Of a stretch of 42,991 nt of DNA, positions 1 through 40,092 are shown in pieces. Every line of letters starts with the position of its first letter. The stretch's first letter is position 1. Below the pieces are notes generated by a model. It had not been told where the DNA came from. It did no database searches and was given only the letters and a program-made list of their open reading frames with translations. Origin of the DNA: Candidatus Levyibacteriota bacterium (lineage in GTDB: Bacteria; Patescibacteriota; Microgenomatia; Levybacterales; UBA12049); contig JACDET010000007.1 in the NCBI GenBank assembly GCA_013816255.1, positions 1 to 42,991 of the forward strand, in the 5' to 3' direction. The translations under genes were made by a program, and so were the position numbers.

Positions 1-273
1 CGCCCAGTCATTCCAGACAAAGACGAGCGGTAAGATATGATTGAGTGGTAACCAGACGCTACCGAGTTGCGCGAGACCTGGTTCCTGATTATCTATGACA
101 AGACGTGCAATGTTCATATGAGACATCGCGTCGTTGTAAGTTGTGATAAGACCGCTTACATATGAGATATACCAAGCGATAATACTGAGAAGTGTAACGG
201 GGAGCAGATTTTCAAACGCAAAAAGTCTATTAAAATTTTTAAAATTAAAAATATTTGTTAATGTATCTTTCAT
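1..273 (-). CDS. N-terminal fragment (truncated by window edge) of a polytopic membrane protein of the YND-SH-IAR family (GT-C-like); third paralog in this window
   Basis: Absent from the ORF track because it runs off the window. The reverse complement of 273..1 starts with ATG and reads MKDTLTNIFNFKNF...GLITTYNDAMSHMNIARLVIDNQEPGLAQLGSVWLPLNHILPLVFVWNDWA. This is collinear with YNDARSHLDISRRV..LGSVWLPLPHLL (17077..18705) and YNDSMSHLNIARFV..LGGVWLPVPHLL (32918..35503). Confidence 0.75.
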   Translation of the reverse strand, partial: MKDTLTNIFNFKNFNRLFAFENLLPVTLLSIIAWYISYVSGLITTYNDAMSHMNIARLVIDNQEPGLAQLGSVWLPLNHILPLVFVWNDWA

Positions 274-360: not shown

Positions 361-2577
361 TTAAGCTGCTGCTCCAGCAATCTGTGATTTGTTGCCTTGC
401 ACCAAACCTGTTCCTGTTGGATCATTATCGACTGTGTCCAGATGCAAACCGTGTTGTGTTTTGTGCCAGTAGTGAGGTTTGAAAACGAACTCCCAAATCG
501 CAAGCCCTGCGGCAATACTCATTCCCAACCAATAAATAGGTGTCAAAAGAGCAAATGGTACGAGTCCCCATTGTTCACGTTTGGCTGCTCCAAGCATGTA
601 GTAATACATGTAGAGGAAGTTTCCGATGAACATTGAGAAGACAGCCATATAGAAAATCGGTGCGAGATAGAGTGATTTAATGAACTCCCCTGTCCACGGT
701 GTGAATGCAAAATATGCAATCGTCATAAGCCACATGATTGGATTGATAAGCATTGAAAGAATTTTGCCTCCGATAACGAGTTGGAAGATAAAGAAATCTT
801 GTGGTCTTTTCTGCGTAAAGAATGCTTGCGGGTTACGCATATGCACGAAATATGTTTGGATATATCCTTTGATCCATCGTGAGCGTTGCTTGACCCAATT
901 GAATGTATCTGAATTAGCTTCTTCCATTGTTGTTGAGTTAATTAAAGCAGTTCTGTATCCGATCTTTGTCAAACGCATGCCAAGATCAGCATCTTCGGTT
1001 ACATTAAACGGATCCCATTTTTGCAGTCTAATGATGTCTTTTGTACGGAAATGGTTACTCGTTCCGCCCAAAGGTATTGGCGCGTGAATTGATTGCAAAC
1101 CTGACAGGACCAAATTGAACCAGAGTGAATATTCGATTGTAAACATACGAGTCAAAAGGTTTTGATCAGGATTGTAGAAGTTCAATTTCGCTTGCAAACA
1201 AATGATGTTTTTCTTCGCTTTTTTGAAGGCTAATACAGCTTTTTTGAGTTGTAACGGGTCGGGAACATCTTCCGCGTCAAAGATCACAGTGTATTCGCCA
1301 GTTGCTTTAATCAGTCCATAGTTGCACGCCTTTGGTTTGGTTTTTGGTTTTGATTCAGGGACGATAACGACATCGAAGTAGAATGGAAGATTCATCATAG
1401 CTATCTTATCGATACTTTCAGTATCTTCACTTTCCAGAAGTAGCATAACTTGTAATTTATCTTTTGGATAATCTAATTGACTCATCGCTTTCACAAATTG
1501 TGGCAATACTTCCCATTCTTTATACAGTGGGCATAGCACTGTATAGGTAGGCCATGCTGACTCAGGAATCTTATTGATACTGCGCGCTGTGATATTTATT
1601 TCCGCTTCTTTAAAGTAACTGCGATAGATTAAAAAGAAGTTAAAGAGCAAATCAGTGAAATAAACAACTGTCAAAACAGATATGAAAACAACAAGCGTTG
1701 TGTGCCAGTTGAGAACGAGTCCTAAAATGATTGCTGTTATGAGTCCACCAAGGACCGCATATTGCAATGTTGTCATGCGGGTTAACGCACTTTCACCAAT
1801 GGTAAGATTGGTGTGGTGAATGTACTCGTTGCCGCGCATGTGAAACCCTTGCCCTTTATTATCAGTATCTTTTTGTGAGAAAGGTACAATGCCGTTATCT
1901 TTAAATTTCAACGCAACTGCACTTAATCCAATTTCCAGCGATGAGCGGACAACTGCAATTTTTGAAGTACCTGCATGACGTTTTGCGAAGTCGACATCAA
2001 CACTTGCAACTGTGTATCCAGCATGTCGTGCCTTCAGTAAGAATTCGAGATCAAAGGTCCATGATGAAGGATTGAGTTCAAAATGATTAACCAAACTTTT
2101 TCTAAAGACTTTTAATCCAGACTGGACATCTTCTGAGAATCCATGGAGCAGTTTTGAGAACATATGGTGATAAACTTTACTCATCACGCGACGAAGCATT
2201 CCCGCTTCATATTTATTTCTGTTGGCAATGACGATATCAGCGCCACCATTGATCTTTGCAATCATTTCTGGAATATACTTTGGTTGGTATTGCAGATCAG
2301 CATCAATCATGCAAAGCAGTTCATACTTGGCGTACCCAAATCCTTCAAGGAGTGAATAGGCTTTTCCTTGCTTTCCCTTTTTGGTGTGGAGTTTGATTGG
2401 GTATGTCTTTGATAATTCTTTAATAATTGCAACTGTTCTATCGGTTGACCGGTCATCGACAAAAACTATCTCATATTTTTGGACACTGCCGATGAGTGCA
2501 TAGTTAATTTGCTCGACAAGCGGTCGGATATTTTTCTCCTCATTCCAAACTGGTACAATAATAGATATATTTTTCAT
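361..2577 (-). CDS. Bifunctional GT2: N-terminal polyprenyl-phosphate sugar synthase-like module (GtrB/ArnC/DPM1 type), TM helices, and a C-terminal processive GT2 synthase module
   Basis: N-terminal motifs: IIVPVWNEEKNI, VDDRSTD, IDADLQYQP. C-terminal motifs: FDAEDVPDP, FNVTEDADLG, QRSRWIKGY (D,D,D,QxxRW). The ORF-track start at 2586 is TTG. The first ATG is 2577 (MKNISIIVPV). Confidence 0.85.
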   Translation of the reverse strand: MKNISIIVPVWNEEKNIRPLVEQINYALIGSVQKYEIVFVDDRSTDRTVAIIKELSKTYPIKLHTKKGKQGKAYSLLEGFGYAKYELLCMIDADLQYQPKYIPEMIAKINGGADIVIANRNKYEAGMLRRVMSKVYHHMFSKLLHGFSEDVQSGLKVFRKSLVNHFELNPSSWTFDLEFLLKARHAGYTVASVDVDFAKRHAGTSKIAVVRSSLEIGLSAVALKFKDNGIVPFSQKDTDNKGQGFHMRGNEYIHHTNLTIGESALTRMTTLQYAVLGGLITAIILGLVLNWHTTLVVFISVLTVVYFTDLLFNFFLIYRSYFKEAEINITARSINKIPESAWPTYTVLCPLYKEWEVLPQFVKAMSQLDYPKDKLQVMLLLESEDTESIDKIAMMNLPFYFDVVIVPESKPKTKPKACNYGLIKATGEYTVIFDAEDVPDPLQLKKAVLAFKKAKKNIICLQAKLNFYNPDQNLLTRMFTIEYSLWFNLVLSGLQSIHAPIPLGGTSNHFRTKDIIRLQKWDPFNVTEDADLGMRLTKIGYRTALINSTTMEEANSDTFNWVKQRSRWIKGYIQTYFVHMRNPQAFFTQKRPQDFFIFQLVIGGKILSMLINPIMWLMTIAYFAFTPWTGEFIKSLYLAPIFYMAVFSMFIGNFLYMYYYMLGAAKREQWGLVPFALLTPIYWLGMSIAAGLAIWEFVFKPHYWHKTQHGLHLDTVDNDPTGTGLVQGNKSQIAGAAA

Positions 2578-2584
2578 TTTTAAC

Positions 2585-2615
2585 AAAAAAGCCCAACTAC
2601 ATATAATAGTCGGGC
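2585..2615 (-). terminator. Intrinsic-terminator-like hairpin plus U-run, ending 8 nt upstream of the ATG of 361..2577
   Basis: The minus strand reads GCCCGAC-tattatatgta-GTTGGGC-tttttt-gttaaaa-ATG. The stem is 7 bp including one G.U pair. Confidence 0.5.
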
Positions 2616-2647
2616 AGACATAATTAATTAAACCTAGAGTAAATATA

Positions 2648-2676
2648 TATATACACTATAGAATTACTTATGTCAA
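2648..2676 (-). promoter_or_regulatory. Sigma70-type promoter TTGACA-17-TATATA
   Basis: The minus strand reads gcTTGACAtaagtaattctatagtgTATATAt. The -35 is at 2676..2671 and the -10 at 2653..2648. Confidence 0.55.
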
Positions 2677-2778
2677 GCACTAAATATATCATTTATGCCT
2701 AAATACCATGTACTATGAGCCACTGATAGGAAATATATTTATGAGAATATCAATTTTTTTGACACAGATTATTAACTT

Positions 2779-3546
2779 GTCAGAACCAGGTTCGTACTAG
2801 CTTGAAGAACGGGGATTATACAATGAGGTGTTTGAGATTTGCTAGAGATCTTTGGTAATCGACTTGATCACGCATAAAGGATTCATATTGTTCAGGACTA
2901 GAAAAGTGACTCATAACTGATTTACAATTTATAATCTCTGTTTTCGCAAGTGGATTGAGGTACGCTCCATATGATGACCATGTATATTTCGGCAATGCAT
3001 CAATCTCCACTATATAATCAGTGACCGGATTTAAGTGAATATAGCGTGACACGTGAAGCAATTGTTCATCTGTTCCTATTCTGACAGCTTTAAACATATC
3101 TTGGAAGAGTGCCCCATGCCTACTATATTTTGTATTGAAGTATTTCGAGTAACTATGTTGAAAGTTTCTCATAAACGTCGATATCCCTTTGTCAACTTTT
3201 GACTGTAGCATAAAGTGTACATGCGTAGGCATAATGCAATAAGCGATAATTTCGACAATAGGCACTTGTTGTTTTTTAATACTTTTCATATAACTATCTT
3301 TATCCGCAAGCGCTAATCGTTTGAAATGAGAGTAACTTACTGGCATTCTTCCATATCTATAATATTGAATAAGTGCTAGTGCTCGTACATAATCATACGT
3401 AGAGGTAAAAAGAGGAATTTGTGCAACACTTCTATTAAAGACATGATACGTCTCTCCAATAGCAATAGGTATTTTACGATAAGGCATATATCTATAATAA
3501 ATAGATACATACCCGTTTGTCAAGCTAGTACGAACCTGGTTCTGAC
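2779..3546 (-). mobile_element. REPtron-like unit: RAYT gene bracketed by 35-nt inverted REP copies
   Basis: 2779..2813 is gtcagaaccaggttcgtactagcttgaagaacggg. The reverse complement of 3512..3546 is gtcagaaccaggttcgtactagcttgacaaacggg. They match at 33 of 35 positions. Confidence 0.75.
2816..3486 (-). CDS. REP-associated tyrosine transposase (RAYT; IS200-like Y1 HUH transposase, COG1943-like)
   Basis: HUH motif in IMPTHVHFML and a Tyr motif in SRYIHLNPV. The track start at 3523 is TTG and lies inside the flanking repeat. The ATG at 3486 (MPYRKIPIAIGETYHVFNR) is preferred. Confidence 0.8.
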
Positions 3547-3566
3547 AATCTAGCTAGCTACCTTTA

Positions 3567-3621
3567 TCCCCGCTCTTCTAGCTAACCTGAACCAGGTTCT
3601 GACTAGGTAGAAGTACGGGGA
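3567..3621 (+). repeat. Complete REP-B hairpin (both arms around the gaaccaggttc palindrome)
   Basis: Sequence tccccgctcttctagcta-acctgaaccaggttctgac-taggtagaagtacgggga. The outer arms are complementary at 15 of 18 positions. Confidence 0.7.
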
Positions 3622-3650
3622 GTTATTGTGAGTGTTAGAGGTTACTTCTC

Positions 3651-6293
3651 TTATTGTTTGCTTGCTAGTTTTGGTGAGCTCCAGAGATTTGGGAGGTCGT
3701 TGTTATAGAGTGCTGTGCCGAACCAGACCCAATTCTGGGTGTAATAACTCGTCGGGTCTTCCCAATAACTCCCCTCTTTATCTTCATACAACTTATTAAG
3801 AATTTTTTCTTCATAGATCTTTTTGGCATTTGTCTTATCAGTTACGACAAAGTTACCGAGGTTCGATGCGTATGCACCTGCTGCTTCATATTCTTCCCAC
3901 GGTTTTCCATCATGTGTATATGCGACGTCGATCTTTCCTTTTTCTTTCCATTCTTTGCGTATAAAATCACTCTTGGTTAAATACGCTTTTGCTCTTGGTT
4001 CTTTGAACCATTGATAGTCAAGAGCAATTCTCCACGGTGTGCGAAAAGCGTCATATGAATATTCAGTCGAGTTCAAACCTTCATCAGGTGATTTGATAAT
4101 TTTACCAGCACTATTGACTGCGCACCAGTTTGGAGCAAGTCCAACGGACGATTCTTTATCTAAATTGCTTTCACTACATGCATTGAGAACCTCATACGAT
4201 GAATTCACAACACTCAACCAATTATGTTCTGTATCGATTTCTGCAAAGATTCGGTAACTGGCCGGCATCAAATATGAAGGGTTTACGATTGCTGAGCTCT
4301 TGGCTTTTGCCCAATCTCCGGCAACCAGATAGGGTTTGCCGCGTACTACTTTTATCTCTTGATCCCAAATACCATTGATTACAGACCTTGCTTCGGCAAT
4401 ATATTGCGGGTTATTCCAGCGTTTACCAGCAAAAGCCAACGCTAGTGCGATATCCTGATCGCCATCCGTTGCTGAACTCTTATCCAGAACTCCTGGTGTG
4501 CCGCCAGCCGTCTTTCCCCATTTCCAAGAGAAAACATTACTTTCTTTTTGCATATTTCGTTTGGTGAATCCCCAAGCTCTATCAAATGTTTCTTTGTCGT
4601 TCATCCATACAGCCCGAAGCATTGCATAGGACTGTCCTTCTGACGTGGTTTGGTTACTTGCCGGATCAACGGTGTTTCCATCCTCCTCAATAAACGTCTG
4701 CTTGTATGTTTCCCATGTTGATACAAGAATTCTTCGAGAATTTTTTACTGCCCAGATTTGCACATACCATCCGTCTCCTGTGAAACTTGTAATTGGATTT
4801 GATTGTGCCAAAGCATTTCCTGTCATTGGTAACTCCCCTGTTCCCAAATCTCCTCCAATAAGTGGTGTGAAGAGAATGTAGTCGATATTGTTGTAGTCAT
4901 TATTGAGCACTTTTTCTTTGATATCACGGTCTCCATCAACTTTCCAATAATACTCTGCGTTTTTAAAATTCCCATCATTTCTAAAGTTTAGATCTAAGTA
5001 CGCATAGTTATCTATCGCAATAAATTCTGTAGGCATTTTGCGTGACAGTATCCACTCTACTGCTTCGATTTGCGCGTCAGTTACATTTGATCGATATATA
5101 TCAAACCTATCAGAACGTATCGATGATGAGAAGTCAGTAAGCGTAATTCCCATGTATCCGAGGAAGGCAAGAACTGGGAAAATAGCGTACAATTTCAACG
5201 GTACAAATTTCATCTTCCAGAAAAAGTTCGTCGCAACATAGACAACGTATGCAGTTGTCAGTGATATGAGGGGTATCAGCGGGACGATGTAGAATTCAAG
5301 AACCAAACCTCCTCTGAGTAAAAATGCCCAATAAGAAAGAGCGAAGCCACCAATGATTCTTGCCGCAACGCTTTTGATTGCGAGAAGTAATGTAATCACA
5401 GTCGAAGCAGCACCAACAAGTAAAATTGCGGGATCATCATTTTTCCAGTTGTTGGTCATTTCCCAAAAACTCGATTTGGGATTCCAAATGTCGACATTAC
5501 CTCGACTTGCTTGAAAATCTAACGTCCCCAAAAGACTGACGTGCTCATTGGTTCCACCAAGTGGCGTTCCTGCTGGAAAGAATTCACCTTTGAACATACT
5601 GAATACGAAATAGAGTGAGATGAAGCATCCCGCAATAGCAATCCATTTAATTGTTCCAAAAAGTCTATTAACTTTATGGAGTTGGCTGTACACAAGTACA
5701 GCGAGAAACGGCAAGAAAAAGATAGCAGATTCTTTACTCAATACTGCGATACCAAAACTCAATGCACTGGCAATAATCCAGCGAAGTTTTTGCTTACTGT
5801 AGAGAATAAATGCAAGCGAAATGAGTAGCCAGAAAACCATGATATTATCAAGAAGCACACGTCTTTGAAAGTAAATTGCCAGAGGAGACAGTGAGAACAT
5901 CAGAACAGAGAACGCTCCAACCATCTTTGAGCCAGTAATTTTTTTGCCCACAAAATACAAAAGGAGTGCTGAAGCAATATGCAAAATAAGCATAAGCACA
6001 CGACCCGAATTAATTGAGAATCCGAACGTAAAAAGACCTCCGGTTAACTTAAGCCAAGCCGCAATAAGAAACCAACCAATAGGTGCATGATCGTACCAAT
6101 AGGTATATGGAGCTAATTTACCTTCACTAATAATTGACCACGCTTGCGACATGTAGGTACCTTCATCAGATTCATAATATGGGTAGCCAAACATGTTATA
6201 GCCGTGCGAAACCCCAGCAACAACTAAGACTGCGATAATGATAATCCATTCAAAGGTTTTACTTTTGAAAAATTGTTTTAGTTTATGTAACAT
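3651..6293 (-). CDS. Fusion protein: N-terminal GT39/PMT-like polytopic glycosyltransferase (GT-C) plus C-terminal GH8 endoglucanase-like domain
   Basis: N-terminal YYESDEGTYMSQAW..YDHAPIGW (DE-motif loop of PMT/ArnT-like enzymes) with about 12 TM segments. C-terminal TSEGQSYAMLRAVW and SATDGDQDIALALAFAGKRW are BcsZ/GH8-type blocks. Confidence 0.8.
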   Translation of the reverse strand: MLHKLKQFFKSKTFEWIIIIAVLVVAGVSHGYNMFGYPYYESDEGTYMSQAWSIISEGKLAPYTYWYDHAPIGWFLIAAWLKLTGGLFTFGFSINSGRVLMLILHIASALLLYFVGKKITGSKMVGAFSVLMFSLSPLAIYFQRRVLLDNIMVFWLLISLAFILYSKQKLRWIIASALSFGIAVLSKESAIFFLPFLAVLVYSQLHKVNRLFGTIKWIAIAGCFISLYFVFSMFKGEFFPAGTPLGGTNEHVSLLGTLDFQASRGNVDIWNPKSSFWEMTNNWKNDDPAILLVGAASTVITLLLAIKSVAARIIGGFALSYWAFLLRGGLVLEFYIVPLIPLISLTTAYVVYVATNFFWKMKFVPLKLYAIFPVLAFLGYMGITLTDFSSSIRSDRFDIYRSNVTDAQIEAVEWILSRKMPTEFIAIDNYAYLDLNFRNDGNFKNAEYYWKVDGDRDIKEKVLNNDYNNIDYILFTPLIGGDLGTGELPMTGNALAQSNPITSFTGDGWYVQIWAVKNSRRILVSTWETYKQTFIEEDGNTVDPASNQTTSEGQSYAMLRAVWMNDKETFDRAWGFTKRNMQKESNVFSWKWGKTAGGTPGVLDKSSATDGDQDIALALAFAGKRWNNPQYIAEARSVINGIWDQEIKVVRGKPYLVAGDWAKAKSSAIVNPSYLMPASYRIFAEIDTEHNWLSVVNSSYEVLNACSESNLDKESSVGLAPNWCAVNSAGKIIKSPDEGLNSTEYSYDAFRTPWRIALDYQWFKEPRAKAYLTKSDFIRKEWKEKGKIDVAYTHDGKPWEEYEAAGAYASNLGNFVVTDKTNAKKIYEEKILNKLYEDKEGSYWEDPTSYYTQNWVWFGTALYNNDLPNLWSSPKLASKQ

Positions 6294-6356
6294 ATTATTA
6301 TTGTTCGAGCGAAGTTGAAAACCGTTTCTCGATTCACTTTGTTCACTCGAAAAGTA

Positions 6357-8570
6357 TTAATTCCCTATCTTTATATAATTTGTATTTATTGGTAAAAAAG
6401 CTTTTTCAGGTCTATGTGCATTCAGATGTAATGTTTTTTCCCAACTGCCGTTGCCTGTAATAAGTCTGAGAATTGCCCGCATCGCGCTTAATCCGAGAAT
6501 AATTTGAAATGGATAGAATGAATATAATATTTTAAATGGTAACCAGAAAGGGAAACGCATCCCATATCCTTTGGTAAATTCATACATCCCGATAGTAAAT
6601 GCAACAAGTTGTAGGAGAAGCAGCAGTAACGGAATAAATGTAATCATCGCGAAAATCACTGGTAAGTTGAGAACAAAAGCCAGAAAGATTGAGATAGGAA
6701 GCATCAGGAAAAAGAATGCTTGTAATTGTGGAACAAGTAAAATGTATCCGGCGAGAAAACGTTGTTGGAATTTTGGCAATTTTAACCACTCGCCTTTCCA
6801 AAGGATTTGTATAAAACCTTGATTCCACCTTGTGCGTTGTTTGATAAAGCTATCGAGATTATGTGGCGTTTCTTCTTGTGTTGTGTGCTTTTCATCATAG
6901 ACGACACCAATGCTTGCACCTCTTGCACTCAGTCGTATACCAATTTCTGCATCCTCTGTCAGACATGCTTCATCCCATCCACCAACTTGCCCCAACATTT
7001 TTCGTTTGAAGAAGACTGTATTTCCTCCGAGCGGGATGATGCCTTGTTTGGCAAAGTAATGCAGTGCTGATTTGAACCAGAAGAAATATTCAAGAACATT
7101 GAGCGTTGAGAACCAATTAGATTTGAAGTTCATGAGTTGCACGCCAGACTGCAAAACATCAAGATTTTTGGTAGTCATTTGCGTGTTGGCAATGTTATAG
7201 ATACTCCGGCTTGGTTGATCTTCAGCGTCAAATACCACGATGACATCTTTTGTGGCGTGCATCAGCCCAATGTTCAAACTATGTGGCTTGTTTATTGGCA
7301 TATCATTAAAGATGACCAATCGGACATTAGGTTTGTTCAGCTCTGTAATTGTTTGTTGTGCACGGGCAATTGTCCCATTATCATCTGATCGGACAATAAC
7401 CAGTGTTTCTTTCAGTCCCTCAGGATAATCAATCCCAGCAATCGCGCGAATCGTATCCCCGATGACATGTTCTTCATGTCTCACAGGCAGAAGTGCGGTA
7501 AAAGAAAATTTGGGTTTTTCATATATTTGCGGTACTTTATCTTTTTCTATTCGTTCTACGTCTTCCCAACCATACAGCATGAGAAAAATACTGAAGACAC
7601 TTTGCCAAATCATGAGAACTGAAATGGTAACTAATACCAGTATAATGAGTGTCTGATTACTTATAAATCCAGCCGTCTGGAGGTTGTACATGGCTAACGC
7701 AGCGATATTTCCGAGAGAAAATGCGGTAATTGCGACGATTGCTGCAAGAAGGGCAACTCCTCCATGCACAAGATATGGCATGCGGATTGTAAATGAATGG
7801 AAAATAAATTCTATGATATCGCGCTTACTGAGCTTGGAATTCCCGTGAATTCGATCGGTAAATTGAATTGGAATCTCTTTAATAATAGCGTTGTTCTGAA
7901 TAGCTTTATGCAGAAGATCAATTTGAAAAGCATAGCCTTTAGCTTTGAGTTTGTTAAGATGTATCCTTTTCAGAAGCGATGTTCTGATCGCGCGGAAACC
8001 ACTGGTACAGTCCTTTACGCGGCCAAGACCTGCTATATGGCGTGCAAATATATTTCCCCATTGGCTGTTAAGCTTACGGATGCGTGGCCATTTCGCGGGA
8101 ATTGATCCCCCGTCAATGTATCGTGAGCCAATCACAAAATCATTGCCTTTTTGTATTTCGTAGACAAAAAACGAGATCATTGATGGATCGTGAGAAAAAT
8201 CAGCATCCATTTCAAAGACAATATCCGCACCCATTTGCCGCATAGCATATTTGAACCCACGGATATACGCATTGCCAAGTCCAGCCTTACGACCTTTGAG
8301 TAAATGGACGTTTTTGTATTTCTTGACATATGTCTGTACAATCTGGGCTGTCCCATCAGGTGAGAAATCATCAACGACCAAAATTGATAGAATTGCGTTT
8401 TTGAGATAAATAGATTGTGTTTGGATAGCTTCGATTATTTTGCCTATATTCTCACTTTCATTATATGTAGGCACAACAATAACGACATGATCCTTCAGGA
8501 CTCCTGCCTTTGATACATTTTGCAAGCGCAGTTGATACAACTGCTTATTTTTATTTCGTAAACGGTTCAT
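6357..8570 (-). CDS. Bifunctional GT2: N-terminal DPM1/Ppm1-like polyprenyl-phosphate mannose/glucose synthase module, TM helices, and a C-terminal processive GT2 module (divergent paralog)
   Basis: N-terminal motifs: VVPTYNESENI, VVDDFSPDGT, EMDADFSHDP. C-terminal motifs: FDAEDQP, LTEDAEIG, QRTRWNQGF. ATG start at 8570. Confidence 0.85.
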   Translation of the reverse strand: MNRLRNKNKQLYQLRLQNVSKAGVLKDHVVIVVPTYNESENIGKIIEAIQTQSIYLKNAILSILVVDDFSPDGTAQIVQTYVKKYKNVHLLKGRKAGLGNAYIRGFKYAMRQMGADIVFEMDADFSHDPSMISFFVYEIQKGNDFVIGSRYIDGGSIPAKWPRIRKLNSQWGNIFARHIAGLGRVKDCTSGFRAIRTSLLKRIHLNKLKAKGYAFQIDLLHKAIQNNAIIKEIPIQFTDRIHGNSKLSKRDIIEFIFHSFTIRMPYLVHGGVALLAAIVAITAFSLGNIAALAMYNLQTAGFISNQTLIILVLVTISVLMIWQSVFSIFLMLYGWEDVERIEKDKVPQIYEKPKFSFTALLPVRHEEHVIGDTIRAIAGIDYPEGLKETLVIVRSDDNGTIARAQQTITELNKPNVRLVIFNDMPINKPHSLNIGLMHATKDVIVVFDAEDQPSRSIYNIANTQMTTKNLDVLQSGVQLMNFKSNWFSTLNVLEYFFWFKSALHYFAKQGIIPLGGNTVFFKRKMLGQVGGWDEACLTEDAEIGIRLSARGASIGVVYDEKHTTQEETPHNLDSFIKQRTRWNQGFIQILWKGEWLKLPKFQQRFLAGYILLVPQLQAFFFLMLPISIFLAFVLNLPVIFAMITFIPLLLLLLQLVAFTIGMYEFTKGYGMRFPFWLPFKILYSFYPFQIILGLSAMRAILRLITGNGSWEKTLHLNAHRPEKAFLPINTNYIKIGN

Positions 8571-8745
8571 TTTGTGCTTGAAAGAATGTAGATTTAATGG
8601 GGCAATATAAATCTATGAGCTCTAAAATATAGTACTAACGCATTTGAATACTATAAGCCAGCAAGTCGTGAGTATAGTATAGAGAGAAAGATATGTCAAG
8701 TTCTATACATATTTATAGCCCATCCATAAACATATCTCTTTAAGA

Positions 8746-8775: not shown

Positions 8776-8943
8776 TAAAGTCTGCCTCAGTATCCGGTTT
8801 TTGTAAAGAACTGGAAAGATAAATTGCCTCTTTACTATAAGACTTTTTTATGGTACACTGCACCATATAGGATATCTTTGCTATGGGATTCATTCCATAG
8901 CACATATAAGAATCTTGTAACCATAAAACAGTATAAAATACAT

Positions 8944-11900
8944 ATGAACCTAAATATTATAAGTCGTTATTTTAAGAAAACACGTACCCGTGCTCAACGC
9001 AAGAAGAAAATGTATGAACAGATAGCACCTGTTGCAGGGTCAATGCGGGGTGCAGGAGTCCATTTCAAAAACAAAAAGTATATTACTCATACCACACTCC
9101 CCGTCTCACTTTCTGCCATACAGACATTCTCACTTTCCCAAAAGATCTTTTTTATCGCGACACCAATTCTTCTTATCGCGGCTCTTATTCTGTTCCCTTT
9201 GCCAGCAGCGCAAATGATTGTTGCTGTACTCAGTATTCTTTACCTCATTGACGCAATCTTTAATATATTTGTCGTCACAAAGAGTCTGAGTCGTGAGAAT
9301 GAAATAAATGTTACCGATGAAGAATTAAGTACGATAAATGAAAACAATTTACCAACGTATACAATATTATGTCCTTTATACAAAGAAGTGCATGTCGTCC
9401 CACAGTTTCTTGAAGGTATAGCTGCAATCGACTGGCCAAAAGATAAACTTGATGTGATGTTTCTTCTTGAAGAAGATGATGCAGAAACCATCGAAGCCTT
9501 TGGCGAAATGACGCTTCCTTTTTATGCACGAACAGTTGTCGTCCCTGATTCCCAACCAAAGACCAAACCAAAAGCGTGTAATTACGGACTATCGTATGCA
9601 ACGGGTGAATACCTCGTAATCTTTGATGCAGAAGACGTCCCGGATCCTCTGCAACTCAAAAAGGCATATCTCGGATTTAAAAAAGCTCCAGCAAATGTAA
9701 CATGTTTGCAGGCAAAACTCAGTTACTACAATGCGCGTCAAAATCTGTTGACCAGATTCTTTACAGCTGAATATGCATTGTGGTTTGATGTGACATTGCC
9801 AGGGCTGCAATCACTCAATTCAGCGCTTCCATTGGGTGGTACAAGTAATCACTTCCTCACTGAGAATTTGCGCCAACTGCAAGGTTGGGATCCATTTAAT
9901 GTGACTGAAGATGCTGACTTGGGTGTGCGCCTATTCCAAAAAGGTTACCGTACAGCGATCATCAATTCAACAACCTATGAAGAAGCAACAAGTGTCAACA
10001 AAAATTGGTTGCGCCAACGTTCACGATGGATCAAGGGATATATGCAAACGTATTTAGTGCACATGCGCAATATCCGTGACTTTATCCGTGAGAAAGGTTT
10101 ATGGCATAACTTCATCTTTCAATTAACCGTTGGAGGAAAAATCTTGTTCGTTCTCTTAAATCCGTTCATGTGGATTATCACATTCTTGTATTTCGCGGCT
10201 AATCCTCTCGTGGGTCCGGTCATGGAAGCTATCTATATAGCACCGATTTCCTACATCGCTGTGACCTCATGGATCTTTGGTAACTTCCTCTTCATGTACT
10301 GCTACATGATCGCTGTCGCCAAAAGAAAACAATGGGATATCACAAAATATATATTACTTATACCATTATATTGGTTCATGATGAGTACGGCTGCGATGAT
10401 CGCGCTTTATCAGTTGATTCTTAAACCCCACTATTGGGAAAAAACACTACACGGATTTCATCTCGGACGCAAAGAAGATGCAAAAGCCGCACCAGGTGTT
10501 ACGGTCAAGCCAGTTATTGCACCTGCATATGCTAGGTCTGCAGTCACGATGAAACTAGATAAAAAAACGCACAAATTCACAATGCCTAATCGTAAAAAGA
10601 CATTGTACGCTCTATTAAACGTCTTACCATTCATAGCAATTTTAAATATCGATTTAGTCGTTGCACGCTATTATCTTCCTATACAGGAAGCACAAACATA
10701 CTTACTTGTCTCACTTCTTGGAAAAACACTCTTTCTTGTCAGTCAAATCGGATCAAAAATACTTGCAACGTACGTAGCACGCGGAGAATCTGAACGCAAT
10801 GTCTTTTACAAAACCGTTCTTTTCACCTTCTTATTTCACTGGATGGGATACATTCTTTTGGGTCTTGAAGGAGCGTTCTTTATCCCGGCAGTATTGGGCT
10901 CAACATTTAATGCAGCGATAATTTACATGCCTTTTTATATGTTTGCTCTTCTGTGCTTTGGACTGGCTATGCGCTTTAACGCATATAACTTACAGCGCAA
11001 TAATCCTGTTTACGCCGTAGTATCACTCACGACAATATTTGCTTTCATCCCGCTTATTATGATGAATAACGATTCAGTAGCAGGCTTTGTCAGAACATTT
11101 GCCTATGTCGGTTCAATTAATCTCTTCGCGGTTGTCACGATATATATGAGCAAACCTTACATGCGCATTATGCAAAACAATGTAGGAAGCTTGCTTGCAA
11201 TCTTTGATAAGGTGCGTACGCGCAAAGTCTGGAAAGACAATCAAATGAAAATTTTGATTTTCAACTGGCGCGATACCAAACACGTTTACGCTGGAGGGGC
11301 TGAAGTCTATGTCGACGAATTATCAAAACGATGGGTAAAAAATGGTAACAAAGTAACCCTTTTCTGTGGGAACGATAATCGAAATCCTATTTATGAACAA
11401 ATACAGGGTGTTGAAATCTACCGCCGTGGTGGAACCTATACTGTATACCTGTTCGCGATTATTTACTACATGTTCAAGTTCCGTGGTAAATATGACGTTA
11501 TTATCGATTGTGAAAATGGAATTCCATTCTTTATGCCACTTTTCGCGCGTGAGCAGGTAATTCTTCTGATCCACCATGTACACCAAGATATCTTTAGAAA
11601 ATTCTTGAAATTTCCTATCAGTTTCATCGCTGAAATGCTTGAAGGAAAGCTCATGCCATTTATATATCAAAATAAAAATGTTGTGACTGTTTCAGCCTCT
11701 TCACAAAGTGATATATTTAATCTTGGATTTACGAATGCAGGCAATATAGCAATCATTCCAAATGGTGTTGATAGTGCACTATTTGTAGATTACCCAAAAA
11801 CAGAGTATCCTTCATATATCTATTTAGGGAGACTTAAAGAATACAAAAATGTTGATGTCGCAATTACAGCATTTTCTAAAGTATTGAAAATACATAAAAA

Positions 11901-12414: not shown

Positions 12415-13298
12415 AAGCACAAGTGAATGTATCTATAGGAATCCCTGCATATAATGAAGGGAAAAATATTCAGCAACTCCTTATGTCGCTTCTTGCGCAA
12501 AAAGAAGATTCGATTAAGATTAAGGAAATTATCCTGCTATCTGATGGCAGTAATGACGATACGGGACAAAAAGTGAAAGCTATCAAAGACCGGAGAATTA
12601 TTTTTAAAGATGACCATAAACGTCTTGGAAAATCTGCTCGCTTGGATCAAATATTTAGATCATTTACAGGCGATGTACTCATTCTTATGGATGCTGATAT
12701 CGTCATAACTGATGCCCAATTGCTTGAAAAAACTATACTTGCCGCAAATCTTTCTCGATCAGGCATAGTGGGCATTAACGCTCTTCCACTTACTGCTGAA
12801 ACATTCTTCGAGCAAGTTATCGAAACTGGTGTGCGTATCATGAAAGATATTGCAAAAGGATGGAATAATGGAAATAATTATTTATCATTTAAAGGTTGCT
12901 TTCTGGCTCTCGATGGAAAGCTCGCAAAGGCGATTCATATACCAGCAAGTGTTGTAAATAATGATTCATATCTTTACTTTGCTGGAGTGGAGAAAAAATA
13001 TGTACCCAAATATTTATCAGATATAAGCGTTTATTACCGTTCTCCAATGAATCTTGCTGATCACATCAAACAGTCATCACGGCATCAAAACTCGCGTAAA
13101 GAACTTGAGAAATTTTTTACATTAGATTGGGACTACGAATATACAATGCCTGTTGCATTAGTAATACTGAGTATCCTAAAATCTATACTCACCCGTCCAA
13201 TATATTTCGTAGCCTATCTTGCCGTGACACTCATTGCCAAAGTCAAACGGCAAACAAATATCAAAAGCACATGGAGTGTGGCTAAGTCGACGAAGTAA
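12411..13298 (+). CDS. Non-processive GT2 family glycosyltransferase
   Basis: SIGIPAYNEGKNI, LSDGSNDDT and MDADIV motifs. ATGA overlap with the upstream stop. AAGGGAG RBS about 10 nt upstream. Confidence 0.75.
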   Translation: MKAQVNVSIGIPAYNEGKNIQQLLMSLLAQKEDSIKIKEIILLSDGSNDDTGQKVKAIKDRRIIFKDDHKRLGKSARLDQIFRSFTGDVLILMDADIVITDAQLLEKTILAANLSRSGIVGINALPLTAETFFEQVIETGVRIMKDIAKGWNNGNNYLSFKGCFLALDGKLAKAIHIPASVVNNDSYLYFAGVEKKYVPKYLSDISVYYRSPMNLADHIKQSSRHQNSRKELEKFFTLDWDYEYTMPVALVILSILKSILTRPIYFVAYLAVTLIAKVKRQTNIKSTWSVAKSTK

Positions 13299-13300
13299 TG

Positions 13301-13335
13301 TTAGTACTTAGTAGTTAGTCTTTAGTTCTTAGAAT
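13301..13335 (+). repeat. Five tandem TTAGnnn heptads directly after the stop codon
   Basis: ttagtac ttagtag ttagtct ttagttc ttagaat. Two inverted TTAG units follow at 13352..13366 (catactaagcactaa). Confidence 0.7.
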
Positions 13336-13375
13336 CAATATTTTAAACAAGCATACTAAGCACTAAATTAATATA

Positions 13376-14464: not shown

Positions 14465-14511
14465 TTTGACATCCATCCCTTTATGTGATACAATTCTGCC
14501 AACCTATAACT

Positions 14512-35503: not shown

Positions 35504-35505
35504 AG

Positions 35506-37014: not shown

Positions 37015-37041
37015 CAGCAGCAAATACAAACGTATCGACGG

Positions 37042-40053: not shown

Positions 40054-40072
40054 GATAGTAATTAGTACTATA

Positions 40073-40081
40073 ATTATACCA
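40073..40081 (-). promoter_or_regulatory. Extended -10 element TGgTATAAT
   Basis: The minus strand reads catGGTATAATtatagtactaattactatcGTG. It abuts the REP-B copy. Confidence 0.45.
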
Positions 40082-40092
40082 TGATTTCCAAC

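What the first reader, a model, noticed from the sequence alone, without database searches (positions are those of the whole stretch)
361..8570. Two tandem fusions of a polyprenyl-phosphate-sugar-synthase-like GT2 to a processive GT2 synthase, each followed by a GT-C membrane protein
Proteins 361..2577 and 6357..8570 both begin with a GtrB/ArnC/DPM1-type module (IDADLQYQP; EMDADFSHDP). Enzymes of this type make polyprenyl-P-hexose. After several TM helices both proteins end with a QxxRW processive synthase.

The next gene downstream is in both cases a GT-C-type membrane protein (1..273 fragment; 3651..6293). GT-C enzymes use polyprenyl-P-sugar donors on the outer face of the membrane.

This suggests a self-contained circuit:
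- the synthase extrudes a backbone;
- the fused N-domain makes the lipid-linked donor;
- the GT-C partner decorates or anchors the polymer outside the cell.

I am not aware of a characterised enzyme with this domain fusion.
Basis: partly seen in the sequence, partly recalled or inferred. Interest (0 to 1): 0.72.

Follow-up and report, generated by a model that had tools for sequence, protein, structure and literature searches.

The report
Lipid-sugar synthase fused to polysaccharide synthase
Two genes in this uncultured (Patescibacteria-type) bacterium each join an enzyme that loads a sugar onto a membrane lipid carrier to a cellulose-synthase-like polymer pump, and each is followed by an outward-facing transferase that uses such lipid-sugars; this wiring is widespread but has not been studied experimentally.

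Summary
ORFs 361..2586(-) and 6357..8570(-) are uninterrupted two-GT2 proteins. Each N-half is a DPMS/GtrB/ArnC-type polyprenyl-phosphate glycosyltransferase with its donor, metal and acceptor-phosphate residues conserved. Each C-half is a BcsA/HAS-like membrane synthase with invariant DxD, TED and QxxRW motifs.

The 1..273 fragment is the start of a second GT-C.

The fusions are not rare. More than 100 clusters at 90% identity exist for each type, all in Patescibacteria.

The conserved core is synthase plus GT-C, adjacent in 61 of 69 loci, including cultured Ktedonobacter. The lipid-sugar synthase is an add-on that can be fused, fused together with a GtrA-type domain, or encoded as separate genes.

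Best reading: a synthase-dependent beta-glycan machine with a built-in three-component (Gtr-like) extracytoplasmic glycosylation branch. This is inferred from gene context, not shown. I found no paper describing it. I rate it a new variant of known kinds, with moderately high interest.

The parts
361..2586 (-). Fusion protein A. The ORF runs from TTG 2586. Databases call ATG 2577, giving 738 aa (P0001).
   Evidence: AF2 model: pLDDT 87.4, pTM 0.83.
1900..2577 (-). A, residues 1-226: GtrB/ArnC/DPMS-type polyprenyl-phosphate glycosyltransferase domain. It comprises a GT-A fold plus two interface-helix equivalents (H127-144, H209-226) and has no TM domain of its own.
   Evidence: PfDPMS 5mlz E 6.6e-26 by sequence. 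Foldseek rmsd 2.6 A over 239 columns; ArnC rmsd 2.7 A. E13, D42, D92, D94, Q96, R120, R129 and R200 are invariant; S133 and K206 are at least 90% conserved.
1612..1899 (-). A, residues 227-322: conserved linker (consensus ..KGxGFHYKGxEFxHHT..) plus a hydrophobic hairpin (274-316). This region belongs to the synthase module.
   Evidence: Standalone A_C-type paralogues match from A residue 291 onward, after about 70-130 residues of their own. The linker resemblance in paralogue D was judged by eye from the translation.
364..1611 (-). A, residues 323-738: membrane-embedded GT2 synthase module. It comprises a GT-A domain, interface helices and three C-terminal TM helices.
   Evidence: Invariant D434xED437, T527ED529 and Q564RxRW568. 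Best Foldseek hit is E. coli BcsA 9b8v_E, E 3.5e-17, rmsd 5.4 A over 447 columns. TIGR03030 CelA E 1.2e-22, below its cutoff.
1..273 (-). First 91 residues of the GT-C gene that follows A, cut off by the window end.
   Evidence: 69% identical to the N-terminus of the 539-aa PMT_2 protein after the orthologue in L003. The family has an invariant first-loop Asp (YxDA) across 28 sequences.
6357..8570 (-). Fusion protein B (737 aa, P0121).
   Evidence: AF2 model: pLDDT 90.0, pTM 0.62.
7782..8570 (-). B, residues 1-263: DPM1/DPMS-type domain (dolichyl- or polyprenyl-phosphate mannose synthase signature).
   Evidence: PfDPMS 5mlz E 1e-31. It is the top Foldseek hit, at 30% identity. All PfDPMS functional residues map to conserved positions: E38, D68, D122, D124, H127, R150, R165, S169, R240, K246 (PMC5526996).
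7563..7781 (-). B, residues 264-336: two TM helices (H266-299, H305-336) joining the two cytoplasmic GT-A domains.
6360..7562 (-). B, residues 337-737: BcsA/PgaC-like membrane GT2 synthase module.
   Evidence: Invariant D448AED451, T538ED540 and Q578RxRW582. BcsA E 1.2e-8 by sequence. Foldseek hits: BcsA 4p00, PcManGT 6yv7 (TMt 0.74), Cv-HAS (TMt 0.6).
4794..6293 (-). GT-C module (residues 1-500) of the gene following B; PMT_2/PMT-like, multi-TM.
   Evidence: Pfam PMT_2 46.5 bits against a cutoff of 26.1. In the first-loop xDEG motif, E44 is 100% and G45 is 96% conserved. R98, R144, E237 and D455 are 100% conserved over 65 homologues.
3654..4736 (-). GH8 endoglucanase-type domain (residues 520-880) fused to the outer end of that GT-C.
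   Evidence: Pfam GH8 E 4e-48. BcsZ model E 2.4e-39, below its cutoff. CelA 1cem E 3.7e-31. The catalytic Glu (the E/Q difference between 1cem and 1kwf) and the YD Asp both align with identical residues.
2816..3523 (-). Y1_Tnp / REP-associated-tyrosine-transposase-like gene lying between the two units. It is not part of the system.
   Evidence: PF01797 E 7e-12. NF047646 scores 52.6 bits, below its cutoff of 80.
8671..8699 (-). Promoter-like site (11 of 12 matches) upstream of B.
   Evidence: This is a consensus match only.
2591..2615 (-). Terminator-like hairpin (10-bp stem plus T run) between the transposase-like gene and A.
   Evidence: This is a consensus match only.

Best explanation
Each fusion is a bifunctional inner-membrane enzyme belonging to a synthase-dependent polysaccharide system that carries its own Gtr-like 'three-component' glycosylation branch.

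**Proposed steps**
1. The C-terminal BcsA/HAS-like GT2 polymerises a beta-linked glycan from a nucleotide sugar and passes it across the membrane. For the B type the product is most likely a beta-1,4-glucan or cellulose-like chain.
2. On the same cytoplasmic face, the N-terminal DPMS/GtrB-like GT2 charges polyprenyl phosphate with one sugar. For B, whose signature is DPM1-like, this is probably mannose from GDP-mannose.
3. The lipid-sugar is flipped to the outer leaflet by an unidentified route.
4. The GT-C encoded next door uses the lipid-sugar outside the membrane to add that sugar to the emerging polymer. The polymer is held or trimmed by the GH8 domain fused to the GT-C (GH5 in a paralogue).

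**What is shown**
- Domain identities.
- Conservation of catalytic residues in all four modules.
- A predicted topology that puts both GT-A domains on one side of the membrane.
- Tight and phylogenetically wide gene linkage.

**What is inferred**
- The sugar identities.
- Processivity of the synthase.
- That the GT-C acceptor is the polymer.
For: **N-domains**
- Best sequence and fold matches are PfDPMS, ArnC and GtrB.
- The donor/metal motif, the acceptor-phosphate triad (PfDPMS Arg117/Arg131/Ser135) and the A-loop Arg/Lys all map to invariant or at least 90%-conserved positions in 72-73 homologues (residue roles from PMC5526996).
- PfDPMS lacking its TM domain is still active and membrane-bound. 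A fused catalytic domain without a GtrA-like TM domain is therefore plausible.

**Synthase halves**
- DxD, TED and QxxRW are invariant.
- The fold matches BcsA and HAS.

**Linkage**
- The B-type synthase is directly followed by GT-C in 61 of 69 loci across Patescibacteria and Chloroflexota, and 28 of those carry a fused GH8.
- The operon reads DPM1-like, GtrA_DPMS_TM, synthase, GT-C in L123 and L139.
- GtrA-family genes lie beside the synthase in L152, L032 and L129, and L100 is a DPMS-like + GtrA_DPMS_TM + synthase fusion.
- L022 carries GtrB-like + LAB_N + two GT-C genes beside an A-type fusion.

**GT-C and GH domains**
- GT-C first-loop acidic residues are invariant.
- The GH8 catalytic residues are conserved, and its best matches are endo-beta-1,4-glucanases including CMCax and BcsZ.
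- Ktedonobacter racemifer has the synthase and GT-C next to a GH5 cellulase with a CBM3 cellulose-binding module.

**Precedent**
- A membrane enzyme that modifies nascent cellulose from a lipid-derived donor is already known: BcsG (PMC8892547).
Against: - There is no biochemical or genetic evidence for any member.
- Pfam scans of most of the window's larger ORFs found no flippase-type gene.
- The synthase has only about 2+3 TM helices. Normalised to the target, its best TM-score is to the small PcManGT (0.74), so a polymer-conducting channel is not established.
- GT-C linkage is independent of the fusion. Most Chloroflexota loci lack a nearby DPMS-like gene.
- Half of the A-type fusions pair with an unidentified TM module plus GT4 rather than a GT-C. 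Of 35 A-type fusions, 11 have a GT-C directly adjacent, 18 have one within 6.5 kb, and 17 have none within reach.
- Neighbouring hydrolases vary between lineages (GH8, GH5-CBM3, GH18, GH113), so the polymer may differ.
- pTM for B is only 0.62, so the relative placement of its domains is uncertain.
Confidence: 0.5

Rival explanations
1. Lipid-primed synthesis. The N-domain makes polyprenyl-P-sugar, and the fused synthase extends it as a primer, so the polymer is lipid-linked. The GT-C then transfers the chain en bloc to a wall or protein acceptor, or the fused GH8 cuts it from the lipid. GH8 would play the role proposed for the KORRIGAN cellulase.
For: - Physical fusion of the lipid-sugar synthase to the synthase gives 1:1 stoichiometry. 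pTM is 0.83 for A.
- The strict synthase-GT-C-GH linkage fits a donor that is the synthase product itself. That would also explain why Chloroflexota keep the GT-C without a linked DPMS gene.
- Lipid-linked primers for cellulose synthesis have been proposed before: Matthysse 1995 and the cotton CesA sitosterol-glucoside/KORRIGAN model, both as summarised in PMC8892547.
Against: - To my knowledge (recalled, not checked here), bacterial GT-C enzymes that use polyprenyl-monophosphate donors transfer single sugars.
- The recurring GtrA-type module fits flipping of a lipid-monosaccharide.
- From my own knowledge, BcsA and HAS need no lipid primer.
- Under this model the N-domain should be obligatory, yet many orthologous synthases lack it.
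Confidence: 0.15
2. Lipid-linked glycan assembly rather than polymer secretion. The C-half is a non-processive PcManGT-like membrane GT that, together with the DPMS-like domain (AglJ-like), builds a short polyprenyl-P-linked glycan. The A-type relatives add GT4 and a flippase-like module. The GT-C acts as an oligosaccharyl- or glycosyl-transferase onto protein or wall, as in archaeal Agl pathways.
For: - High target-normalised TM-scores to PcManGT: 0.74 and 0.69.
- AglJ model hits at E 6e-20 and 6e-19.
- A-type fusions extend to DPMS-like + GT2 + TM module + GT4 proteins of about 1550 aa.
- One member of that TM module hits the MOP-flippase family Polysacc_synt_3 at E 2e-5.
- Sortases and surface-protein genes are nearby.
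Against: - Three of the other four synthase paralogues in the window have a polysaccharide hydrolase beside them (GH26, GH81) or fused to the adjacent GT-C (GH5), and B has GH8. This is the hallmark of synthase-dependent polymer systems (PMC8892547).
- QxxRW and TED are invariant.
- The fold also matches BcsA over 447 columns.
Confidence: 0.1
3. The DPM1-like domain plus the PMT-like GT-C form a protein O-mannosylation system, like Ppm1/Pmt of actinomycetes. It is co-located with, but mechanistically independent of, the polysaccharide synthase. Its substrates would be secreted or sortase-anchored proteins, perhaps including the GH8 domain itself.
For: - B's N-domain has the full DPMS signature, including the guanine-binding Asp.
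- The GT-C matches the Pfam PMT and PMT_2 families.
- From my own knowledge, mycobacterial Ppm1 is likewise a Ppm synthase fused to another membrane enzyme domain.
Against: - Adjacency of this GT-C to this synthase in 61 of 69 loci across two phyla is hard to explain without a shared substrate.
- So are its repeated fusions to glycan-binding hydrolase domains, GH8 and GH5.
Confidence: 0.12
4. Dual-GT copolymerase. The two GT2 domains add two different sugars alternately to one chain, as in K4CP chondroitin polymerase or class II hyaluronan/heparosan synthases.
For: - Two GT-A domains sit in one chain.
- K4CP and PmHS2 appear among the Foldseek hits, with low TM-scores of 0.2-0.35.
Against: - The N-domain belongs to the polyprenyl-phosphate GT subfamily and keeps the acceptor-phosphate-binding residues.
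- It is absent from many orthologous synthases that keep the same partners, which does not fit an obligatory co-polymerase.
Confidence: 0.03

Closest known systems
Three-component extracytoplasmic glycosylation systems (GtrA/GtrB/Gtr-GT-C of Shigella and Salmonella; CsbB/GtcA/YfhO; GacI-L; pentofuranose systems)
   Same: A GT2 charges polyprenyl phosphate with one sugar, a small flippase exports it, and a GT-C adds the sugar outside the membrane (PMC11127046). Here a GtrB/DPMS-type domain and a GT-C are present. GtrA-family modules occur in relatives.
   Different: The paper read here describes these systems for Wzx/Wzy- and ABC-transporter-dependent O-antigens. Their use on teichoic acids and secondary wall polysaccharides is described in PMC13390465. 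Here the lipid-sugar synthase is covalently fused to a synthase-type GT2, the GT-C is fused to a glycoside hydrolase, and this window has no recognisable flippase.
Bacterial cellulose synthase systems (BcsA with BcsZ GH8 and the BcsG pEtN transferase)
   Same: The catalytic subunit is a membrane GT2 with D, DxD, TED and QxxRW motifs. There is a cognate GH8 endoglucanase outside the membrane. In E. coli, BcsG modifies the nascent chain from a lipid-derived donor (PMC8892547). BcsA is the best fold match for A.
   Different: No PilZ domain or other Bcs-family model was detected in the fusions or the window ORFs scanned. There are far fewer TM helices. All scores fall below the NCBIfam CelA, BcsA and BcsZ cutoffs. 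GH8 is fused to a GT-C, and the modifying donor would be a polyprenyl-P-sugar.
Dolichyl-/polyprenyl-phosphate mannose synthase (PfDPMS, DPM1, mycobacterial Ppm1) with PMT-type GT-C mannosyltransferases
   Same: B's N-domain carries the DADxSH motif, the Arg/Arg/Ser acceptor-phosphate triad and the A-loop Arg/Lys of bona fide DPMS. The partner GT-C hits the Pfam PMT and PMT_2 families. From my own knowledge, Ppm1 is a precedent for fusing a Ppm synthase to another membrane enzyme.
   Different: The fusion partner here is a polysaccharide synthase. The GtrA-like TM domain of PfDPMS is missing in A and B. PfDPMS Lys178 is not conserved: it aligns with Ala in B and Thr in A. The acceptor of the GT-C is unknown.
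PcManGT of Pyrobaculum calidifontis (PDB 6yv7), a small membrane GT2 mannosyltransferase
   Same: It gives the highest target-normalised structural similarity to the C-halves, TMt 0.74 and 0.69.
   Different: Sequence similarity is marginal (E about 1e-5). From memory, PcManGT has no N-terminal TM hairpin and is thought to be non-processive. Here hydrolase partners point to a polymer.
Two-domain GT2 polymerases (K4CP, PmHAS, PmHS2)
   Same: Two GT-A domains in one polypeptide.
   Different: Those are soluble or peripheral enzymes in which both domains extend the same chain. Here the domains are separated by TM helices, and the N-domain is of the lipid-phosphate-acceptor type.

Membership tests
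Polyprenyl-phosphate glycosyltransferases of GT2 (DPMS/DPM1, GtrB, ArnC) | GT-A fold with the DAD(L/F)(Q/S)(H/Y) donor/metal motif and the upstream nucleotide-binding Asp. | tested here: met
   In A, D42, D92, D94 and Q96 are invariant. In B, D68, D122, D124, S126 and H127 are at least 90% conserved. They align with PfDPMS Asp39, Asp89, Asp91, Gln93 and His94.
Polyprenyl-phosphate glycosyltransferases of GT2 (DPMS/DPM1, GtrB, ArnC) | Acceptor-phosphate-binding residues (PfDPMS Arg117, Arg131, Ser135), described as 'conserved in bona fide DPMSs'. | tested here: met
   They map to R150/R165/S169 in B and R120/R129/S133 in A. All are invariant or at least 90% conserved. Residue roles come from PMC5526996.
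Polyprenyl-phosphate glycosyltransferases of GT2 (DPMS/DPM1, GtrB, ArnC) | Acceptor loop with Arg202 and Lys208 (R-x-x-G-x-S-K), plus two amphipathic interface helices. | tested here: met
   R240/K246 in B and R200/K206 in A. Model helices H163-179 and H249-263 (B) and H127-144 and H209-226 (A) lie at the corresponding positions. Foldseek gives rmsd 2.6 A to 5mlz over 239 columns. Amphipathicity was not measured.
Polyprenyl-phosphate glycosyltransferases of GT2 (DPMS/DPM1, GtrB, ArnC) | Its own C-terminal TM domain (four GtrA-like helices in PfDPMS; two in GtrB and ArnC). | tested here: not met
   No PF04138 hit in A or B. Only the hairpin shared with the synthase follows the domain. The TM domain is dispensable for PfDPMS activity. 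It is present in the related fusion L100.
Polyprenyl-phosphate glycosyltransferases of GT2 (DPMS/DPM1, GtrB, ArnC) | Forms polyprenyl-P-sugar from a nucleotide sugar and polyprenyl phosphate. | not testable with these tools
   Requires an enzyme assay.
Membrane-integrated processive GT2 synthases (BcsA, HAS, PgaC/IcaA, NodC/chitin synthase type) | D, DxD, TED and QxxRW catalytic motifs. | tested here: met
   A has D434xED437, T527ED529 and Q564RxRW568. B has D448AED451, T538ED540 and Q578RxRW582. All are invariant.
Membrane-integrated processive GT2 synthases (BcsA, HAS, PgaC/IcaA, NodC/chitin synthase type) | Interface helices plus a TM bundle that forms a polymer channel above the active site. 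| tested here: inconclusive
   The fold matches BcsA (E 3.5e-17, 447 columns), HAS and PcManGT. Only about 2+3 TM helices are predicted. Model coordinates could not be inspected for a channel.
Membrane-integrated processive GT2 synthases (BcsA, HAS, PgaC/IcaA, NodC/chitin synthase type) | Membership of a named equivalog (CelA/BcsA, PgaC). | tested here: not met
   TIGR03030 scores 79.8 bits against a cutoff of 699. TIGR03937 scores about 100 bits against 422. Similarity is at superfamily level only. No PilZ domain was found.
Membrane-integrated processive GT2 synthases (BcsA, HAS, PgaC/IcaA, NodC/chitin synthase type) | A cognate extracytoplasmic glycoside hydrolase or lyase encoded with the synthase. 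| tested here: met
   For B, GH8 is in the next gene. An A-type paralogue pairs with GH5, and other paralogues pair with GH26 and GH81. Hydrolases are a hallmark of these systems according to PMC8892547. Fusion A itself has no hydrolase within the window.
Three-component (Gtr-type) extracytoplasmic glycosylation system | A polyprenyl-P-sugar synthase, a flippase and a GT-C encoded together. | tested here: inconclusive
   The synthase domain and the GT-C are present. Pfam scans of most of the window's larger ORFs found no GtrA, LAB_N, LPG_synthase_TM or MOP protein. GtrA-family modules are present in L123, L139, L152, L032, L129 and L100.
GT-C glycosyltransferases (PMT_2/PMT, ArnT-like) | Multi-TM N-terminal module with a conserved acidic motif in the first extracytoplasmic loop. 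| tested here: met
   For 3651..6293, PMT_2 scores 46.5 bits against a cutoff of 26.1. In its xDEG motif, E44 is 100% conserved over 65 sequences. The A-partner family scores PMT_2 28.2 bits against 26.1 and has an invariant Asp in YxDA over 28 sequences. The fold was not modelled.
GH8 / BcsZ-type endoglucanase | GH8 domain with the catalytic Glu (proton donor) and Asp (base). | tested here: met
   PF01270 E 4e-48. The Glu in SEGQSY aligns with the residue that differs between CelA 1cem (E) and the 1kwf mutant (Q). The YD Asp aligns with the CelA KYD Asp; its role as catalytic base is from memory. The BcsZ equivalog cutoff is not reached: 135 bits against 299.

The most novel reading that the evidence does not exclude
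The fused lipid-sugar synthase supplies a polyprenyl-phosphate-sugar primer that the attached cellulose-synthase-like domain elongates. The polysaccharide would then be made as a lipid-linked chain. The GT-C would act as an en-bloc glycan transferase (ligase) to the wall or a protein, and the fused GH8 would be the primer-releasing or trimming enzyme. This would be a living example of the long-disputed lipid-primed model of cellulose synthesis (Matthysse 1995; the sitosterol-glucoside/KORRIGAN model).
Probability: 0.15. Interest if true: 0.85.

Novelty: new variant of a known kind. Interest (0 to 1): 0.6.

Why it matters
- **A missing combination.** In the literature I could reach, three-component lipid-sugar glycosylation is documented for Wzy-dependent and ABC-transporter-dependent glycans and for teichoic acids, but not for synthase-dependent polymers. 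These fusions and operons are gene-fusion and gene-order evidence that such a combination exists. They occur widely in Patescibacteria, whose cell-surface chemistry is largely unknown, and the core pair also occurs in Chloroflexota.
- **Experimental access.** The synthase plus GT-C core is present in cultured Ktedonobacter and Ktedonospora, so the question can be tested directly.
- **Metabolic inference.** GH8, GH5, GH26 and GH81 genes in these genomes sit beside membrane synthases, or are fused to the GT-C next to one. They may therefore be biosynthetic (BcsZ-like) rather than catabolic. In PMC6031116, for example, cellulose- and beta-1,3-glucan-hydrolysing genes of a Saccharibacterium are read as substrate-degrading capacity.
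- **An old question.** If the lipid-primer reading were right, it would revive a long-standing open question about how cellulose synthesis is initiated.

Tried and rejected
1. **Frameshift or misassembly.** Rejected. The ORFs are uninterrupted and more than 100 full-length homologues exist per type.
2. **Literature searches.** Eight searches were run; six were aimed at this fusion or module and found no description of it. The library is incomplete, so absence is not proof.
3. **Flippase search in the window.** Pfam on most of the window's larger ORFs found none.
4. **Identity of the TM module ('D_mid')** that links the synthase to GT4 in 8824..12414 and in the 1550-aa fusions.
   - No Pfam hit for the window copy.
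   - One of 20 homologues hits Polysacc_synt_3 at E 2e-5.
   - A PDB profile search gave only spurious GPCR matches.
   - jackhmmer from LPG_synthase_TM seeds did not reach it.
   - It remains unresolved.
5. **Junction-spanning search of 1.84 billion representatives** (B residues 100-400).
   - Only a handful of 50%-identity representatives span the junction.
   - Most of the 135 hits at E<=1e-30 are standalone DPMS-like proteins of 230-400 aa.
   - The B-type fusion is therefore a compact family. This search was not a good way to count fusions.
6. **Dual-GT copolymerase and 'GT-C is only a membrane anchor for GH8'.** Both rejected. The N-domain is optional and retains the acceptor-phosphate residues, and the GT-C acidic and Arg residues are invariant.
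7. **The JGI name 'glycosyltransferase XagB'**. I treated it as an uninformative database label; this was not checked further.
8. **Inter-domain geometry.** Model coordinates and PAE were not available, so the distance between active sites could not be measured.

Full report

Yes. The minus strand carries uninterrupted ORFs at 361..2586 (741 aa from TTG; 738 aa from ATG 2577) and 6357..8570 (737 aa). The quoted motifs IDADLQYQP/QRSRW and EMDADFSHDP/QRTRW are present. I call these proteins A and B.

Pfam finds two distinct GT2 domains in each protein. The N-terminal one is PF00535. The C-terminal one matches PF13641 and PF13632.

NCBIfam and PDB sequence searches place the N-halves with polyprenyl-phosphate glycosyltransferases. 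Matches include P. furiosus DPMS 5mlz (E 3e-25 for A, 1e-31 for B), ArnC, GtrB/sll0501, AglJ, PgfS and PpgS. The same searches place the C-halves with BcsA/CelA, PgaC and PcManGT.

The fusion is not an artefact. The top 120 database clusters for A are all near full length at 54-77% identity. Most of the top 120 for B are too, at 43-76% identity. Where named, the sources are Patescibacteria: Levy-, Gottesman-, Roizman-, Magasanik-, Pace- and Parcubacteria, and Saccharimonadia.

The gene after B, 3651..6293(-), is a GT-C (PMT_2 E 6e-12, PMT E 3e-9).

The 91-residue fragment 1..273(-) has no Pfam hit of its own. It is 69% identical to the start of a 539-aa PMT_2 protein that follows the 77%-identical orthologue of A in L003.

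The two units are not a conserved tandem. A Y1-transposase-like gene (2816..3523) and a terminator-like hairpin (2591..2615) lie between them. In close relatives, B has other neighbours.

**2. Anatomy**

AlphaFold2 models built on alignments of 72-73 sequences are confident. A has pLDDT 87.4 and pTM 0.83. B has pLDDT 90.0 and pTM 0.62.

Foldseek against the PDB splits each model in two:
- The N-half matches PfDPMS (A: rmsd 2.6 A over 239 columns, 30% identity), ArnC and GtrB.
- The C-half matches BcsA (A: E 3.5e-17, 447 columns), hyaluronan synthases and PcManGT (TMt 0.74 for B, 0.69 for A).

Using the HMMER alignments to 5mlz and the residue roles given in PMC5526996, the PfDPMS functional residues map as follows:

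| PfDPMS | B | A |
|---|---|---|
| Glu12 | E38 | E13 |
| Asp39 | D68 | D42 |
| Asp89 | D122 | D92 |
| Asp91 | D124 | D94 |
| Gln93 | S126 | Q96 |
| His94 | H127 | Y97 (not conserved) |
| Arg117 | R150 | R120 |
| Arg131 | R165 | R129 |
| Ser135 | S169 | S133 |
| Arg202 | R240 | R200 |
| Lys208 | K246 | K206 |

- From memory, the Ser at the Gln93 position in B is what eukaryotic DPM1 also has.
- All mapped positions are invariant or at least 90% conserved in the family alignments.
- Only PfDPMS Lys178 is not conserved in either protein.

Neither N-domain has a TM domain of its own. That domain is dispensable for PfDPMS activity and membrane binding.

Two hydrophobic helices separate the two GT-A domains. 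Both nucleotide-sugar-using domains can therefore face the cytoplasm. This is inference from the helix count, not a measured topology.

The synthase halves keep invariant DxD, TED and QxxRW motifs. About three further TM helices follow the catalytic domain.

The GT-C partner of B has a first-loop xDEG motif in which E44 is 100% conserved. R98, R144, E237 and D455 are also invariant over 65 homologues. The GT-C family that partners A has an invariant Asp in a YxDA motif.

The catalytic Glu and Asp of the GH8 domain align with those of C. thermocellum CelA. The Glu is pinpointed by the E/Q difference between 1cem and the 1kwf mutant. Its best sequence matches are endo-beta-1,4-glucanases, including CMCax and BcsZ. 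These rank ahead of chitosanases and xylanases.

**3. Comparative genomics: the main new evidence**

I fetched 150 loci from GTDB species representatives, called ORFs, and classified them with phmmer seeds taken from the window.

*B type*
- Of 69 complete B_C-type synthase genes, 61 are followed directly by the same GT-C family. In 28 of these the GT-C carries a fused GH8.
- This holds in Patescibacteria and in Chloroflexota. The Chloroflexota include the cultured Ktedonobacter racemifer, K. robiniae and Ktedonospora formicarum, and also Roseiflexaceae.
- Only 25 of the 69 carry the fused DPM1-like N-domain. These are mainly Patescibacteria.
- Elsewhere the synthase stands alone, or carries extracellular-type N-terminal extensions: LysM, VWA, SH3b and Big_7.
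- In L123 and L139 the same parts are separate genes in the order DPM1-like GT2, GtrA_DPMS_TM (E 3e-24 and 4e-27), synthase, GT-C.
- In L152, L032 and L129 a GtrA-family gene lies beside the synthase. In L100 a DPMS-like domain, a GtrA_DPMS_TM domain and the synthase form one 861-aa protein.
- In K. racemifer the pair is flanked by a GH5 cellulase with a CBM3 cellulose-binding module.

*A type*
- Of 35 fused genes, 11 are followed directly by a GT-C, and 18 have one within 6.5 kb.
- Most of the rest are fused to, or followed by, an unidentified six-TM module plus a GT4. This gives proteins of up to about 1550-1680 aa.
- L022 adds a GtrB-like gene, a LAB_N gene and two GT-C genes. L043 and L006 add LPG_synthase_TM proteins.

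*The window as a whole*

The window is an island of such modules.

| Coordinates | Content |
|---|---|
| 8824..12414 (+) | A_C-type synthase + TM module + GT4 |
| 35506..37029 (-) | A_C-type synthase |
| 32918..35503 (-) | GT-C + GH5, following that synthase |
| 29301..30818 (-) | GT2 synthase |
| 28534..29367 (-) | HlyD-like protein |
| 26528..28561 (-) | GH81 |
| 24296..25900 (-) | GT2 synthase |
| 23259..24299 (-) | GH26 |

**4. How it most likely works**

The pattern has four elements:
- a lipid-sugar synthase fused to the synthase;
- a GT-C fused to a polymer-binding hydrolase;
- the two genes adjacent;
- a GtrA-type module appearing in unfused or differently fused relatives.

The most economical reading is a synthase-dependent beta-glycan system with a built-in three-component glycosylation branch. 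The steps would be:
1. The C-half polymerises and exports the chain.
2. The N-half makes polyprenyl-P-sugar. For B this is probably P-mannose from GDP-mannose, given the complete DPMS signature including the guanine-binding Asp.
3. The GT-C uses that donor outside the membrane on the nascent chain, which its fused GH8 or GH5 domain binds and trims.

Two precedents exist. One is the Gtr-type three-component systems (PMC11127046). The other is BcsG, a membrane enzyme associated with BcsA that decorates nascent cellulose from a lipid-derived donor (PMC8892547).

What is shown:
- the domain identities;
- residue conservation in all four modules;
- the gene linkage.

What is inferred:
- processivity of the synthase;
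- the sugar identities;
- that the polymer is the GT-C acceptor;
- the route by which the lipid-sugar is flipped.

I put this reading at about 0.5.

**5. Rivals**

- **(a) Lipid-primed synthesis (0.15).** The GT-C would be an en-bloc transferase and GH8 the primer-releasing enzyme. This fits the 1:1 fusion and the retention of the GT-C without a linked DPMS gene in Chloroflexota. It also echoes older lipid-primer proposals summarised in PMC8892547. Against it are the known single-sugar chemistry of bacterial polyprenyl-monophosphate GT-C enzymes (recalled, not checked here), the GtrA association, and the optional N-domain.
- **(b) Assembly of a short lipid-linked glycan by a non-processive PcManGT-like C-half, as in archaeal Agl pathways (0.1).** It is supported by the PcManGT similarity, the GT4 fusions and a weak MOP-flippase hint. 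Against it, B and three of the other four synthase paralogues in the window have a hydrolase beside them or fused to the adjacent GT-C.
- **(c) An independent Ppm1/Pmt-like protein O-mannosylation system (0.12).** Against it are the strict adjacency to the synthase and the repeated GH fusions.
- **(d) A dual-GT copolymerase (0.03).** Against it are the lipid-phosphate-type N-domain and its dispensability.

**6. Comparison with known systems, and novelty**

By sequence signatures the N-domains are members of the polyprenyl-phosphate GT family, minus its TM domain. The C-halves belong to the BcsA/HAS/PgaC superfamily but reach no named equivalog. No PilZ domain was detected. A polymer channel could not be verified.

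The three-component definition is only partly met in this window, because no flippase was found.

Eight literature searches were run; six targeted this fusion or the synthase plus GT-C(+GH) module and none found a description of it. The library is incomplete, so this is not proof of absence.

A junction-spanning search of 1.84 billion representatives shows that the B-type fusion collapses to a handful of 50%-identity clusters. Its N-domain is up to 59% identical to standalone DPMS-like proteins.

I classify the finding as a new variant of known kinds. The architecture is common, conserved and uncharacterised. It combines two well-known pathways in a way I did not find documented.

**7. Verdict**

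The pathway logic is strengthened by synteny and alternative fusions. Rarity is refuted. 'Self-contained' is not met. The GH8 domain was missed. The acceptor remains open.
- Interest is 0.6.

Noticed in passing
window 32918..37029 (-): A standalone A_C-type synthase (35506..37029, 507 aa) is followed by an 861-aa GT-C fused to a GH5 cellulase-family domain (32918..35503); the two ORFs as listed abut at 35503/35506. This is a second GT-C + glycoside-hydrolase fusion in the same window.
   Followed up: partly
window 8824..12414 (+) and L010, L012, L017, L023, L024, L027, L032, L045, L048, L050: A synthase module is joined to an unidentified six-TM module and a GT4 domain. In relatives the DPMS-like domain is added too, giving single proteins of about 1550-1680 aa. 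The TM module has no Pfam hit in the window copy. One of 20 homologues hits Polysacc_synt_3 (MOP flippase) at E 2e-5.
   Followed up: partly
window 26528..30818 (-): A further membrane GT2 synthase (29301..30818) is followed by a HlyD-like protein (28534..29367) and a GH81 endo-beta-1,3-glucanase-family protein (26528..28561). This looks like a beta-1,3-glucan synthase/hydrolase module.
   Followed up: no
window 23259..25900 (-): A GT2 synthase with a weak Cellulose_synt match (24296..25900) is followed by a GH26 (mannanase-family) protein (23259..24299). L003 has a GT2 + GH26 fusion of 878 aa.
   Followed up: no
window 12411..18705 (+): Downstream of the synthase-GT4 gene lie a GT2, a polysaccharide pyruvyl transferase, a polysaccharide deacetylase, an unknown 580-aa protein, and a 542-aa GT-C paralogue (17077..18705). 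The paralogue has no Pfam hit but matches the A-partner GT-C family at E 5e-90.
   Followed up: partly
window 2816..3523 (-): A Y1_Tnp / REP-associated-tyrosine-transposase-like gene (235 aa) lies between the two glycan units. It scores below the NCBIfam cutoff (52.6 bits against 80). I did not look for flanking REP-like repeats.
   Followed up: no
window 39277..42036 (-) and 21119..21655 (+): A UbiA-family prenyltransferase (258 aa, E 4e-11), two sortases, and an Ice-binding-like surface protein (415 aa). UbiA-type enzymes start the pentofuranose three-component systems described in PMC11127046. Any link to the GT-C genes here is untested.
   Followed up: no
L101, L106, L132, L091 (Chloroflexota): B_C-type synthases carry N-terminal extensions of 480-680 aa with LysM, VWA, SH3b and Big_7 domains, which are extracellular-type. 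In L091 an FHA domain precedes the DPMS-like domain. The extracellular-type extensions imply an N-out topology for the standalone synthase. That fits the extra TM helix seen in fusion B.
   Followed up: partly
L082, L101, L126 and relatives: The hydrolase next to the synthase/GT-C pair varies by lineage: GH8 fused, GH5+CBM3, GH18, GH113, GH44/39-like. The polymer or its decoration may therefore differ between lineages.
   Followed up: no
Record titles of L006, L008, L009, L015, L019, L074, L080 and others: Many contigs that carry these Patescibacteria-type fusions are titled 'uncultured Gammaproteobacteria', 'Pseudomonadales' or 'Bdellovibrionales' (TPA co-assembly MAGs). This is at odds with every other carrier and suggests mislabelled records.
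   Followed up: no
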